Below are positions 2,254-64,000 of a stretch of DNA of 64,000 nt, in pieces. A program made the position numbers and the translations under genes. Location of the stretch: assembly GCA_964016885.1 (NCBI GenBank), contig OZ024745.1:118916001-118980000 (forward strand). Reading direction: 5' to 3'. The DNA comes from Eledone cirrhosa. Its lineage: Eukaryota. The notes beneath the pieces are model-generated. The model was given only the letters and a program-made list of their open reading frames with translations. It did not search any database and was not told the DNA's origin. How positions within the stretch are numbered: position 1 is the stretch's first letter; the number at the start of each line of letters is the position of its first letter.

Positions 2254-2290
<37 letters not shown>

Positions 2291-2442
2291 TGCAAACGAA
2301 TCGAATGTTATTATTAATATTCGAAAAAATCTGATTACATTTATTGTATTCAGCCATGTAGAGCGGACATTTTTTTTTATTTGAATATGACAAAGTCGGC
2401 CATTTATCGCTCGTATACAGGAAACTGACTGGCCAGTCTGCT

Positions 2443-2518
2443 GATATGCAAATCTGGCTGATCAGTAGATCTGCTAAATCAGCCAGTCTGCTAATATGCA
2501 AATCAGGCTGATCAGTCA
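2443..2518 (+). promoter_or_regulatory. Duplicated octamer (ATGCAAAT) motif upstream of hammerhead
   Basis: ATGCAAAT at 2446-2453 and 2496-2503 within a duplicated GCCAGTCTGCT(G/A)ATATGCAAATC(T/A)GGCTGATCAGT block. The same motif recurs at ~28929-28951 (-). Function inferred only. Confidence 0.45.
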
Positions 2519-2571
2519 CTGTATATTTTAGAAAATAACATATATTTTCACTAGCTCTGACAGTTTGGCAG

Positions 2572-2637
2572 GTGAACAGTGAACTGTACTGATGAAGGGT
2601 GATACCCAGAAACATTAGTGTCTGTAGTTCTGTTTAC
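2572..2637 (+). ncRNA. Type I hammerhead ribozyme, GUC cleavage site
   Basis: gtgaacagt GAACTGTA-CTGATGA-aGGGTgatACCCa-GAAA-CAttagTG-TC-TGTAGTTC tgtttac. All three stems and the core are intact; stem I is extended. Confidence 0.85.
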
Positions 2638-2766
2638 ATGCCAACACAAGAGCAAGAATGAAGGGTTCATTCTACTGACATGGCTATAAAATTGAGGCTT
2701 GTTTGCATAATTGCAAACGAATCGAACGTTATTAATATTCGAAAAACTCAGATTACATTTATTATA

Positions 2767-2871
2767 TGGAGTTGCGACCAATAGAAAGTATTAGCAATTG
2801 AAAAGACCAACGGAAACAATGTTTCCGTTGGTCTTTTAAATTGCTAATACTTTCTATTGGTCGCAACTCCA
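2767..2871. repeat. Near-perfect 105-bp palindrome
   Basis: 52-bp arms centred on GGAAACA-A-TGTTTCC, one mismatch. Confidence 0.95.
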
Positions 2872-28057: not shown

Positions 28058-28095
<38 letters not shown>

Positions 28096-28198
28096 CACGC
28101 ATATACAGATATATATGTATACATACACATATACACGCATATACAGATATATACATACATATATATATACACGCATATACATTTATATACATACACAC

Positions 28199-28238
<40 letters not shown>

Positions 28239-28291
28239 ACTTAGATATATATATGTATTTATATATATATATATATAATATATATATATAT

Positions 28292-28499
<208 letters not shown>

Positions 28500-28561
28500 A
28501 CATAGATATATTTTATGTATTTATATATATATATATAATATATATATATATATGTGTATAT

Positions 28562-29072
28562 ATAAATGGAATAGAATGAAACGAAATTTTATTTCTCACT
28601 CTTAGTACGGCACTTATACGTACTTACATATATGTATACAGACGTACAGTAGTATGTATATATATATACATACATGCACACATATATATATATGCACGTA
28701 TCGGTTTACCGAACATTTATTAAAATGCTCGGTTTGTTTGTTTGTAAACAAACAAATAGCCCGAATTACGCTGTACAGTGTTTAGGCAACCACGTCACCT
28801 TTTTGTTCAACACTGACACAGGAAAGATGTACTAGTTTCAAGCTTATTAGCTATCGTCAGCATCGTATACCTTCCTGCCAGATGGTTGAACGTCTGAAAG
28901 TATATACTTTCCTTATGCATATTAACGGCTGAGCAGCCTAATTTGCATATCGAGTGAGTTCAGTCGGCCGGGCACACCGAAAACGATAAATGGAATAGAA
29001 TGAAACGAAATTTCATTTCTCACTCTTAGTACGGCACTTACTTAAATGTACAGTATATACAGACGTACAGTA
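28562..29072 (-). mobile_element. Hammerhead-bearing ~424-bp unit with terminal direct repeat, embedded in (TA)n
   Basis: TGGAATAGAATGAAACGAAATTT.ATTTCTCACTCTTAGTACGGCACTTA at 28567 and 28991 (offset 424). Internal HHR and octamer on the minus strand. Confidence 0.72.
28826..28864 (-). ncRNA. Minimal type I hammerhead ribozyme
   Basis: Minus strand: GATG-CTGACGA-tAGCTaataAGCTt-GAAA-ctag-TA-CATC, with palindromic ACTAGT stem III. Confidence 0.82.
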
Positions 29073-29090
29073 TATATATATATGTATATA

Positions 29091-29208
<118 letters not shown>

Positions 29209-29287
29209 TATATATGTATATATACGTATGTGCTTTAAATTACAGTACTAATGAAAATGCATTCTCATTGGCACAAGAGAGAGAGAC

Positions 29288-29379
<92 letters not shown>

Positions 29380-29384
29380 TATCA

Positions 29385-30090
29385 TACCTAAGATTAAGGC
29401 ACATTTCCACCTTAACCGTTGGATCAACATAACTTAAGTTATTGACTGGGACCGACAGATTGAGAGGAAAGAGCGGACCAAGTTCCTCCAATTTCACATT
29501 GAAAACTATTACGCTTCAATGACCGTCCTTATTCTGAAGAGGGTGCTGGTCTTCACCGGACCTACCCTACAATAGAGAACCCTACATATTAGACTATCCT
29601 ACACGCCCGTTACTCTCTCCTGAGCTACGACGGGTCACATAGGGCCAAGCTGTTCCCCCGACTCCTCCTTTGATATGAGCATGGGAGCTAGTGACTCGGC
29701 GAAGATTACTGACCTGATTGGACTCTACATCCTCTCTAAATTTAAAGATCGCTTCCGAAAGTACGGAGGGGGATGTACTGCGACGACGGCCTCCTCCCCC
29801 TCACAACTGTAGCCCGCCGCTGTGAAACCGACCGAACCAGAAAGGATCTCTTGTAATTCTTCAACCTTGGATTCCGGATTACCATACGGCATCACCTGAG
29901 TTCAGTGGACTTCCATGAGGTCACACTGAACCTCAAAACCGGACTATACTACTCATACAGGATACCCGACGAGACCCGCCAATACGCCAACAGAAACTCC
30001 CACCACCTACGTTCTATAGCCAATAAGCTAACTATAAACGTCTCCAATCGAAACTCCCGGCTGTCCGCGACAGAGCAGATGTTTCTACGT
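29385..30090 (+). pseudogene. Penelope-like element reverse transcriptase fragment (Naiad-type), frameshifted
   Basis: LNRWINIT*VIDW, FLQFHIENYYASM, FDMSMGASDSAKITDLIGLYILSKF, GMYCDDGL, VDFHEVTLNLKTGLYYSYRIPD. Paralogous to 62972-64000. Confidence 0.75.
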
Positions 30091-37450: not shown

Positions 37451-37875
37451 CCCTATATTCTATCCGAAAAGAAGGGCTGGACATACAATTAGCACACTCT
37501 GGCTCAGCACTGCGTGGATACCTGTCTAAAAAGCAACCCAGCGACAACAACAATCAATGCTCGCTGACTAACTGCCCTATCCGAAATACAGCTATGTGCC
37601 AACGGACACATGTGGTATACCGGATTGAATGCAACAAATGTAAGGAGTTCTACATCGGTAGCACGACTCGAGCAAGACTCGAGCATTAGATAATACATCA
37701 ACACACACGCATCCTTATTAATAAAACACATTGACAAATGTAGAAACATCAACCAACATATTGCTGTTACTATTAAAGAAATGTGGGCAAAGTAAGAATT
37801 AAGGAAGCCTTGCTCATACGTAGACTCAACGCGCAAATAAACAATAGATTAGAACTCAGCACACAGTACTTGACA
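37450..37875 (+). pseudogene. Penelope-like element GIY-YIG endonuclease fragment
   Basis: CSLTNCPIRNTAMCQRTHVVYRIECNKCKEFYIGSTTRARLEH, then IKEALLIRRLNAQINNRLEL. Confidence 0.8.
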
Positions 37876-40461: not shown

Positions 40462-40517
40462 TTCTGTATACTGATGAAGCATTTAAATGCCGAAACAGGT
40501 TGGCTGTTGATATAGAA
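40462..40517 (+). ncRNA. Type I hammerhead ribozyme (slightly degenerate)
   Basis: TTCTGTATa-CTGATGA-aGCATttaaATGCc-GAAA-CAGgttggCTG-TT-gATATAGAA. First stem I pair is mismatched. Confidence 0.65.
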
Positions 40518-40564
40518 GAACTATTTTATATAGAATGTGAAATAGTATATATATATATGTATGT

Positions 40565-62971: not shown

Positions 62972-64000
62972 ATGCTTATCAAAGATCACCTTCCTACGTC
63001 TACTAAGAACATACCAATACCACCTAAAGATACATATGAAAAATTATTGATTAATAGTGTCAACTCCTTTATCAATAGAGTGAGATGGAGGACATTCATT
63101 ACGATAGAAACCGTTCAGACAAAAACAGAGATACACATAATTTCGACAATTACGGCTTTAAAACATTTAAAAGCCCTCCTCACAACACATTATTAAACTC
63201 CTTTGAACATGATCTAATTAAACTAGTTAAGAATATAAAATGCAAAAAACATCATAATAGAAACAAAACCTTCTTAAACTACCTTAACTCCACTATTAAA
63301 GGATTTAATAAAAATAAAAAATCCTAGTGCATGCAGATAAAACTAATAATATATATATTAGCTTACGATACTTATAGAAAATTTATATATAAGGAACTGC
63401 ATAGGAACTACAAGAAAACTACTACTAAAAACCTAGAAGATATAAATATTGAAGGCCGTAATATAGTGAGTAAATTAGGACTTCAGAGACACACACAGCC
63501 ATACACCCCTAATCCCCCAAGATTCTCTCTGAAGGATCATAAAGAAGACTTCATTAGTAACCCTTCAATTAGACTGATTTGCCCTTCCAAATCTGACATT
63601 GGTACTATCAGCAAGAAAATAATGGATAGAATCATCCCATAATTTAAGCACAAAATATACCTTAACCAATGGGGAAATACGAGTGAGGTTATTGAATGGT
63701 TCAAGGGTATTAAAGAGTGTAAAACAAAAAAATTATACAATTTGATATCAATTCATAGTACACCTCTATTTCCCCTATCCTATTAAACAAGGATTTAATT
63801 ATAGCCATGAACAATAGTGACCTGACTAGATCCCAAATTGATGTCATACTTGCGGCCCGAAAAACCATAATTACATTTGAAGAACAATTATGGACCCGCA
63901 AGGATACGCATAACAACTTCGACATAACCATGGGATCTAGTGACTCGGCGCAGGTCACCGATTTGGTGGGCCTATACCTACTTAATGAAATTCATAAGAA
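62972..64000 (+). pseudogene. Penelope-like element (Naiad-type) N-terminus and RT, frameshifted, running off the window
   Basis: STKNIPIP..SFINRVRWR; NYGFKT..FEHDLIKLVKNIK; SLKDHKEDFISNPSIRLICPSKSDIGTISKKIMD; NQWGNTSEVIEWF; FDITMGSSDSAQVTDLVGLYLL. Confidence 0.85.

What the first reader, a model, noticed from the sequence alone, without database searches (positions are those of the whole stretch)
2287..2767. Candidate retrozyme-like family: ~420-nt hammerhead elements, circularly permuted, with a conserved octamer motif (copy 1; copy 2 at 28562-29072 minus)
Seen: two units 26 kb apart, each with one type I HHR and a terminal direct repeat at offset 421 or 424 bp, next to (TA)n. Read in HHR sense they share several features in the same order. 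First is CCATTTATCG. Then, 32-33 nt later, GATATGCAAAT(CT/TA)GGCTG(A/C)TCAG. Next is the HHR core, 81-86 nt after the last octamer. Last are AATT..GGCT and two hairpins (GTTTG..CAAAC; TCGAA..TTCGA versus CCGAG..TTCGG with compensatory changes). The HHR stems differ completely in sequence but keep pairing. The duplicated segment is a different part of the unit in each copy (the hairpin region in copy 1, the region upstream of CCATTTATCG in copy 2). Established: retrozymes and Penelope pLTRs carry type I HHRs, and retrozyme monomers circularise. Inference: a non-coding, self-cleaving RNA circle with its own Oct/POU-type promoter, reverse-transcribed slightly more than once round from variable start points by Penelope-like RT. 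I do not know of a description of this family.
Basis: partly seen in the sequence, partly recalled or inferred. Interest (0 to 1): 0.9.

Follow-up and report, generated by a model that had tools for sequence, protein, structure and literature searches.

The report
Hammerhead retrozymes carrying a U6-like promoter
These two short repeats belong to a family of tens of thousands of non-coding, hammerhead-ribozyme repeats that insert like Penelope retrotransposons and carry a DNA box also found upstream of the host's U6 genes, which likely drives their transcription and is likely copied along because the RNA template is probably a circle.

Summary
In detail: both units have a type I hammerhead, terminal repeats and the shared motifs. 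They are copies of two related families (A, B), with a third (C) elsewhere; box plus hammerhead core occurs 32,843 times in the genome, as dispersed copies and as tandem arrays. This is the known non-LTR retrozyme class.

"Variable start points" is wrong. 3' ends cluster at two homologous sites that join (TA)n (A 27 of 33, B 42 of 49). 5' ends vary, and about half the insertions carry an inverted piece. That is the Penelope signature. Copy 1 used site 1 and copy 2 site 2.

New here: the "octamer" matches a box at -77 to -79 in 4 of 4 intact-looking host U6/U6atac genes and 0 of 11 U1/U2 genes. It is followed by a TATA-like word, putting the predicted start just before the ribozyme. A third to a half of insertions run through the cleavage site and predicted start into this promoter, so the template was a circle or a multimer.

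No RNA data, cleavage assay or partner element. Verdict: new variant of a known kind.

The parts
2257..2287 (.). (TA)n microsatellite at the 5' side of copy 1, likely the insertion target
   Evidence: most mapped 3' junctions of both families run into (TA)n
2288..2767 (+). Copy 1, family A: about 1.14 units, 5'-truncated, 3' end at start site 1
2370..2383 (+). U-rich start site 2 of family A (used by other copies; also the first long T run after the predicted start)
2400..2409 (+). CCATTTATCG motif shared by A and B (TTTTATCG in C)
2445..2456 (+). Upstream duplicate of the promoter box (A-specific duplication)
2495..2506 (+). Box TATGCAAATCAG, like the box at -77..-79 of host U6/U6atac genes
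2539..2546 (+). TATA-like word, 44-45 nt after the box; lies in a predicted hairpin
2567..2572 (+). GGCAGG; predicted transcription start (about 2570), in the extended 5' arm of stem I
   Evidence: inference from host spacing
2574..2636 (+). Type I hammerhead; core 2589-2622, predicted cut after 2622
2709..2767 (+). Terminal repeat, ending at start site 1 (TACATTTAT)
28562..29072 (-). Copy 2, family B: about 1.2 units, 5'-truncated, 3' end at start site 2
29041..29050 (-). TACATTTAAG, start site 1 of family B (homologous to site 1 of A)
28984..28993 (-). CCATTTATCG, internal copy of start site 2, followed by T4
28938..28949 (-). Box TATGCAAATTAG
28900..28906 (-). TATA-like word, 43 nt after the box
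28818..28879 (-). GGCAGG (predicted start about 28876) and type I hammerhead; core 28860-28830, predicted cut after 28830
28562..28571 (-). 3' junction TTCCATTTAT into (TA)n (start site 2)
28058..28561 (.). TA-rich microsatellite at the 3' side of copy 2
29071..29356 (.). (TA)n at the 5' side of copy 2

Best explanation
The two units are 5'-truncated copies of a high-copy superfamily of protein-free hammerhead repeats (non-LTR retrozymes) with Penelope-type ends, likely inserted by a Penelope-like enzyme from a probably circular RNA that is likely transcribed from a U6-like promoter placed just before the ribozyme. Steps: (1) Shown: each unit carries a box matching host U6/U6atac upstream DNA, then a TATA-like word, then the hammerhead. 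(2) Inferred: transcription starts in the ribozyme's 5' arm; in tandem loci it reads through into the next unit; two hammerheads cut out a 435-470 nt monomer that is ligated into a circle, as published for other retrozymes. (3) Shown: insertions end at one of two homologous U-rich sites 35-60 nt apart, joined to (TA)n, with variable 5' ends and often an inverted second piece. (4) Inferred: a Penelope RT/GIY-YIG protein nicks both strands of (TA)n and starts internally at these sites. (5) Shown: many copies run through the cut site and predicted start into the promoter, some beyond one unit. Inferred: this is how an upstream promoter is inherited. [quoted passage not shown]
For: Copy number: 5,071 exact CCATTTATCG-box hits; 32,843 box-core hits, and of the first 100 listed 55 are C, 35 B, 5 A, 5 other or chance. 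3' ends: A 28 of 34 rows (27 of 33 insertions) and B 42 of 49 mapped fall at two sites; exact junction patterns occur 1,318 (B) and 842 (A) times. 5' ends of 3'-anchored samples spread from tens to over 700 nt. A: 46 of 77 pass the cut site, 36 the predicted start, 6 reach one unit. B: 29, 24 and 18 of 70. No pile-up at the predicted start (A 0, B 1). Inverted piece in 51 of 90 A and 35 of 70 B loci. These match the Penelope hallmarks in PMC8557442 and the two internal start sites and both-strand extension in PMC11167929. Other hammerhead-bearing terminal repeats in this genome end the same way, T-rich CAT into (TA)n; RT and GIY-YIG fragments are present. Promoter: box at -77, -78, -79, -78 in three U6 loci and the top U6atac hit, absent from 7 U1 and 4 U2 upstream regions. 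Arrays are internally alike (0.94-0.998) with private variants, against 0.885-0.976 between loci. Circular folds of A, B and C share the same order of helices, z -7.3 to -10.5.
Against: No RNA evidence for expression, cleavage or circles. No autonomous partner was identified, and no terminal repeat was tied to an ORF in the same orientation. Box-to-TATA spacing is 43-45 nt in the elements but 47-49 in the host genes, and the TATA word lies in a hairpin, which could explain its conservation. The host matrix scores A and B3 only modestly (35 and 26 of 500 shuffles as high). T runs, which would stop Pol III, lie between promoter and next ribozyme, and B2 has four T4 runs in the transcribed part. 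The host set is only four genes; 9 of 10 U6atac hits and 3 further U6 hits lack the box and look like retrocopies, and 11 of 14 further U6 regions were not evaluated. Short stem III and the open 10.1-11.1 pair suggest weak monomer cleavage. The fold z-scores are inflated by TA-rich palindromes in B and C.
Confidence: 0.7

Rival explanations
1. Same elements and same Penelope enzyme, but the template is an uncleaved linear multimer read through tandem arrays; no circle is needed.
For: Long arrays exist (30 and 14 units of C). In the Anolis element ribozyme cleavage is not needed and unprocessed RNA is the main substrate in vitro (PMC11167929). Every read-through count fits a multimer equally well.
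Against: Other animal retrozymes accumulate largely as circles (PMC7229834). The ribozyme core and unit-wide folding are kept across three diverged families. Arrays carry private variants, as one template read many times would give, though unequal crossover could do this too.
Confidence: 0.25
2. The motif is a true Oct/POU site serving a Pol II snRNA-type promoter, as reported for newt satellite 2, not a Pol III basal element. This changes the promoter, not the class.
For: All element families keep a perfect ATGCAAAT; A duplicates it. The box lies further upstream than the human PSE (about -50; PMC5855946). A and B also have TCAG about 25-27 nt before the TATA word, as host U1/U2 have TCAGT at about -56. 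T runs would hinder Pol III read-through. Newt satellite 2 is cited as Pol II with an snRNA promoter (PMC2220036, PMC6765202).
Against: The box is found upstream of 4 of 4 U6/U6atac genes and 0 of 11 U1/U2 genes; similarity extends past the octamer (KAG); the U6atac copy reads ATGGAAAT; C lacks TCAG.
Confidence: 0.25
3. They are ordinary terminal-repeat remnants of an autonomous Penelope element.
For: They have Penelope-type ends, and Penelope-like ORF fragments lie in 49 of 430 sequences held, including 29381-29773 next to copy 2.
Against: The unit continues head-to-tail into itself with no ORF between. Neighbouring ORF fragments are separated by microsatellite, in either orientation and at varying distances. 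The ribozymes have an extended stem I, unlike the minimal ones of Penelope repeats.
Confidence: 0.03
4. Satellite DNA spread by DNA-level recombination, with a fossil ribozyme.
For: Homogeneous long arrays; 28% of A copies have a damaged core (65 of 90 intact).
Against: Fixed 3' ends, 5' truncation and inversion, (TA)n targeting and dispersal over many contigs point to reverse transcription. It may still explain growth of the longest arrays.
Confidence: 0.03

Closest known systems
Metazoan non-LTR retrozymes (Cervera & de la Pena 2020, PMC7229834; Li et al. 2026, bioRxiv 10.64898/2026.07.22.740005)
   Same: Short ORF-less units with one type I hammerhead each, as tandem arrays and dispersed copies; short palindromic stem III; weak base of stem II as in axolotl HHR_Amex2; strongly folded predicted circle; co-occurrence with Penelope elements.
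   Different: Units are 435-470 nt, above the 170-400 nt of the first paper and within the 51-972 bp of the second. In the parts I read, neither paper maps insertion ends or a promoter. Here ends and a promoter box are mapped, but circles are not shown.
Poseidon element of Anolis (PAc; Frangieh et al. 2024, PMC11167929) and EN+ Penelope-like elements (Craig et al. 2021, PMC8557442)
   Same: Two internal reverse-transcription start sites downstream of the hammerhead, AT-rich target, both strands extended, 5' truncation, partial tandems, inverted 5' pieces.
   Different: No ORF. The start sites are U-rich (CATTTAT) and could pair by 2-3 nt with (TA)n, whereas PAc starts in an AC-rich stem-loop without target homology. 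Site spacing in B is about 60 nt, not 30-40.
Newt satellite 2 (Coats et al. 1994; seen only as cited in PMC2220036 and PMC6765202)
   Same: Hammerhead tandem repeat with its own snRNA-type promoter. An octamer in that promoter is my recollection, not read.
   Different: Reported as Pol II; here the box is shared with the host's Pol III snRNA genes and not its U1/U2 genes.
Schistosoma Sm-alpha repeats (as reviewed in PMC6765202)
   Same: Promoter followed by hammerhead; the promoter ends up at the 3' end of the cleaved monomer, so tandems are needed.
   Different: The review calls these SINE-like with a Pol III promoter (tRNA-type internal boxes by my recollection); here the likeness is to an upstream U6-type promoter.
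Non-autonomous Chlamys elements such as MRC1 (PMC8557442)
   Same: Non-autonomous Penelope-type elements with partial tandems and head-to-tail multimers.
   Different: That clade lacks canonical hammerheads, and its elements resemble their partner at the 3' end; no partner was matched here.

Membership tests
Non-LTR retrozyme | Type I hammerhead in each repeat unit | tested here: met
   Core and stems in A, B, C; intact core in 65 of 90 A, 101 of 125 B, 15 of 17 C copies found by flank
Non-LTR retrozyme | Short head-to-tail tandem units, at least two with intact ribozyme | tested here: met
   B arrays of 3-9 units, C arrays of 14 and 30, A up to about 1.7-2 units
Non-LTR retrozyme | No coding capacity; no LTR, PBS or PPT | tested here: met
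   Only antisense stop-free stretches of 110-180 codons overlap the units (these were not run against Pfam); no LTR-type ends seen; PBS/PPT not searched separately
Non-LTR retrozyme | Highly self-paired predicted circle | tested here: met
   z -7.3 to -10.5 on five monomers, 40-60 shuffles each
Non-LTR retrozyme | Self-cleavage of the RNA | not testable with these tools
   Indirect only: excess of A 5' ends just 3' of the cut site, window chosen after looking, not seen in B
Non-LTR retrozyme | Expressed as linear and circular monomers | not testable with these tools
Penelope-mobilised element | Fixed 3' end with optional tail (two start sites) | tested here: met
Penelope-mobilised element | 5' truncation, partial tandems, inverted 5' copy | tested here: met
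Penelope-mobilised element | AT-rich or (TA)n target | tested here: met
   patterns include the (TA)n by design and do not test this
Penelope-mobilised element | Identified autonomous partner sharing the 3' recognition region | tested here: inconclusive
   RT and GIY-YIG fragments and similar junctions found, no partner matched
Autonomous Penelope-like element | RT plus GIY-YIG ORF between the repeats | tested here: not met
   Units abut each other without an ORF
Pol III type 3 (U6-type) promoter | Host U6-type upstream box | tested here: met
   Best match at -77..-79 in 4 of 4 U6/U6atac, none in 11 U1/U2
Pol III type 3 (U6-type) promoter | TATA box at host spacing | tested here: inconclusive
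   Present and conserved at 43-45 nt, against 47-49 in host genes
Pol III type 3 (U6-type) promoter | Distal element (host TTACYTCCCTT near -260, shared by U1, U2, U6) | not tested
   Seen in host genes; the element units were not scanned for it systematically
Pol III type 3 (U6-type) promoter | Transcription by Pol III from the predicted start | not testable with these tools
   T-run pattern equivocal

The most novel reading that the evidence does not exclude
A retroposon superfamily that has captured the host's fully upstream U6-type Pol III promoter and solves the problem that such a promoter is not transcribed by placing it just before a hammerhead and travelling as a circle, which a Penelope enzyme opens at two structurally conserved start sites.
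Probability: 0.4. Interest if true: 0.75.

Novelty: new variant of a known kind. Interest (0 to 1): 0.56.

Why it matters
How animal retrozymes are transcribed and which enzyme moves them are stated as open in the papers read (PMC7229834; bioRxiv 10.64898/2026.07.22.740005). This family gives genomic support for the Penelope mechanism at single-insertion level, matching the 2024 in vitro work. It also names exact positions to test: promoter box, start, cut site and two reverse-transcription starts. If the box is a working U6-type promoter, it shows how an upstream promoter can be carried by a retroposon. It also offers candidate Pol III promoter elements for this animal group, and adds roughly 30,000 overlooked ribozyme units that Rfam does not detect.

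Tried and rejected
Rfam: no gathering hit in the window; weak search dominated by miRNA-like TA hairpins.

Expression: no RNA holder listed. Four runs of unknown kind, contigs only, showed presence and nothing on expression or circles.

Variable circular permutation: rejected.

5' ends piling up at the cut site as evidence of cleavage in vivo: A gave 15 events, about 2.7-fold, one-sided p 0.0015, but the window was chosen after looking, windows at 383-415 have higher rates, and B was not significant (p 0.48). Treated as weak. wrongly dropped L239; restores it.

Further families with box plus core: five outliers looked like chance or unrelated. The reversed-pattern controls (0 hits) are weak because reversal creates rare CG words.

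Pol III by T-run depletion: equivocal.

Partner search among held loci: no terminal repeat tied to an ORF; no solved-structure match for one RT fragment; Pfam hit only 4 of 15 fragments.

Stem I covariation across families could not be counted on the MAFFT alignment, because stem III lengths differ; pairs were checked per family instead.

Papers not held: Coats 1994, Cremisi 1992, Ferbeyre 1998. Earlier-findings look-ups returned nothing.

Rows dropped: 13 of 90 A loci interrupted near the junction by a SINE; 4 of 53 B loci without anchor; L088, L092, L099, L132 as repeats of held loci.

Full report
OBSERVATION. The window is G000:C5:118916001-118980000 of a 3.0 Gb genome rich in (TA)n. Both units are as described: hammerhead cores at 2589-2622 (+) and 28860-28830 (-), terminal repeats at offsets of 421-424, CCATTTATCG 32-33 nt before GATATGCAAAT, core 80-85 nt after the last octamer. 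The units align above chance (212 against 167+-7.5; 0 of 500 shuffles; under strict scoring only the octamer block aligns, 1 of 500). Stem II covaries over 10 representatives (3 of 5 pairs with double changes), and stem I pairs in each family. Rfam misses them.

COPY NUMBER AND FAMILIES. Copy 1 and copy 2 retrieve 3,488 and 2,353 candidates; the 40 scored were 86-98% alike. The CCATTTATCG-box pattern has 5,071 exact hits. Box plus hammerhead core has 32,843; of the first 100 listed, 55 are a third family C, 35 B-type, 5 A, and 5 chance or unrelated. Units occur dispersed and in arrays (B 3-9 units; C 14 and 30). Cleavage-to-cleavage monomers from tandem loci are 435-469 nt. Their predicted circular folds show the same order of helices in A, B and C despite barely alignable sequence, z -7.3 to -10.5 (inflated by TA palindromes in B and C).

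ENDS. Loci picked by internal queries, extended 3' from the ribozyme, end at two sites. In A, 16 rows end at TACATTTAT and 12 about 35 nt further, in a U-rich run: 28 of 34 rows, or 27 of 33 as L122 and L366 are one insertion. In B, 21 end at TACATTTA (less precise, TA-rich) and 21 at TTCCATTTAT: 42 of 49 mapped, 4 without anchor. Site 1 is homologous in A and B (just before the strand that closes the hairpin domain); site 2 follows an AAATTT hairpin. Loci picked by the 3' junction, the first 90 (A, of 842) and 70 (B, of 1,318) on contig C1, have 5' ends spread from tens to over 700 nt. Thirteen A loci are interrupted by a SINE in the hairpin loop (same flank in all 13; read in full for L241) and were left out. 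An inverted piece lies upstream in 51 of 90 A and 35 of 70 B loci (internal palindromes may add a few false counts in A). Where examined, it mostly ends at one of the same two sites. These are the Penelope hallmarks listed by Craig et al. (PMC8557442, passages), and they match two internal start sites and extension of both strands by the Anolis protein (PMC11167929, parts 1-2 of 4). Other hammerhead-bearing repeats here end the same way, and RT and GIY-YIG fragments are present. No partner was matched.

TEMPLATE. In A, 46 of 77 insertions pass the cut site, 36 pass the predicted start and 6 reach one unit. In B the counts are 29, 24 and 18 of 70. None of the A ends and one B end fall within 10 nt of the predicted start. 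So the template was often not the primary transcript of a lone copy; it held the promoter, which needs a circle or a multimer. Arrays are more alike within (0.94-0.998) than between loci (0.885-0.976), with private variants. This fits one template read repeatedly, but unequal crossover also fits. An excess of A ends just 3' of the cut site is weak evidence (post hoc; absent in B).

PROMOTER. I fetched host snRNA genes. Three U6 loci and the top U6atac hit carry TATG(C/G)(A/T)AAT(T/G)AG at -77, -78, -79 and -78, with a TATA box near -30. A matrix from the three element boxes finds exactly these positions as best site in 450 nt (scores 13.9-18.2); 7 U1 and 4 U2 regions score at most 10.6 and have TCAGT near -56 instead. 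The host matrix picks the box before the ribozyme as best site in all five element representatives (shuffles as high: 35, 0, 0, 1, 26 of 500); the host sites were anchored with a similar motif, so their fixed position is the independent evidence. Nine of 10 U6atac hits and 3 further U6 hits lack the box and look like retrocopies; 11 of 14 further U6 regions were not evaluated. In the elements a TATA-like word follows at 43-45 nt, 4-5 nt closer than in the host genes. The predicted start falls at GGCAGG in A and B, in the ribozyme's extended 5' arm. Stems pair across this point, which matters only in a circle or multimer. Whether the box is the SNAPc site or an Oct-like site beside it, and which polymerase is used, is open: the human PSE lies near -50, and other organisms set the polymerase by PSE sequence or spacing (PMC5855946, passages).

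MECHANISM. Shown: anatomy, ends, read-through into the promoter, likeness to host U6 upstream DNA. Inferred: snRNA-type transcription starting just before a hammerhead; read-through in tandem loci; double cleavage, probably as a dimer given the short palindromic stem III (PMC4209133, part 1 of 4); ligation to a circle; Penelope-primed copying from two internal sites into (TA)n, often from both strands.

WHAT IS KNOWN. The class is described: non-LTR retrozymes with circles in coral, mussel and axolotl (PMC7229834, parts 2-4 of 6 and passages), proposed to be non-autonomous Penelope derivatives (bioRxiv 10.64898/2026.07.22.740005, parts 1-3 of 5). Promoter-before-hammerhead is known for Schistosoma repeats and newt satellite 2 (review PMC6765202, passages; PMC2220036, passages; primary papers not held). 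An octopus repeat annotation does not mention ribozymes or retrozymes in its main text (PMC13282606, passages); a squid genome paper lists 235 Rfam hammerheads (PMC6962438, passages). PMC5680766 and PMC8490949 (passages) added nothing on promoters. Searches (listings only) found no description of this family or of a U6-type promoter in a retrozyme. Subscription papers, repeat databases and all supplements were not seen and could hold these families. The organism was not determined; a cephalopod is my guess from the repeat content.

VERDICT. Real feature, known class, with a corrected mechanism and one new, testable element, the U6-like promoter. New variant of a known kind; interest 0.56.

Noticed in passing
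L241 and 12 other family A loci: A ~120-nt SINE sits in the (TTA)n loop of family A's last hairpin in 13 of 90 loci, with a short target duplication in L241: a preferred target.
   Followed up: partly
L002:2400-3450: A different tandem hammerhead family (D, about 300-nt unit) without the octamer-like box. It carries GATTACTTCCCTT, like the host snRNA distal motif, and TTTTATCG; its 3' end joins (TA)n.
   Followed up: partly
L116:1-535, L376-L382, L398: Family C, the most frequent in the first 100 hits, in arrays of 14 and 30 units of 466-469 bp at 99% identity; probably the youngest.
   Followed up: yes
L090:14-1418: About 21 tandem copies of a 66-nt piece of family A's promoter region, upstream of an A copy.
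   Followed up: no
L387, upstream of 1501: A U6atac retrocopy directly joined to an inverted family A piece; possible template switch by the same enzyme.
   Followed up: no
L151-L174, L383, L400-L410: Host snRNA promoters: U1, U2 and U6 share TTACYTCCCTT near -260; U1/U2 have TCAGT near -56 and also a TATA box; U6/U6atac have TATGSWAATKAG at -78.
   Followed up: partly
window 25638 (-) and 40462-40530 (+): Two further hammerhead-like motifs: a minimal one in a repeat ending TTTTACAT into (TA)n, and a degraded one.
   Followed up: partly
window 29381-29773 (+), 63032-63992 (+), 37471-37875 (+): Fragments similar to RT-like and GIY-YIG-like ORF pieces found in other loci; likely decayed Penelope-like elements.
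   Followed up: partly
window 2768-2871: A near-perfect ~100-nt palindrome directly after copy 1, resembling a head-to-head pair of short terminal fragments of another element.
   Followed up: no
L033, L095, L125, L223, L226: Head-to-head pairs of short hammerhead-bearing terminal repeats, each end joining (TA)n: the same two-strand insertion pattern in other families.
   Followed up: no
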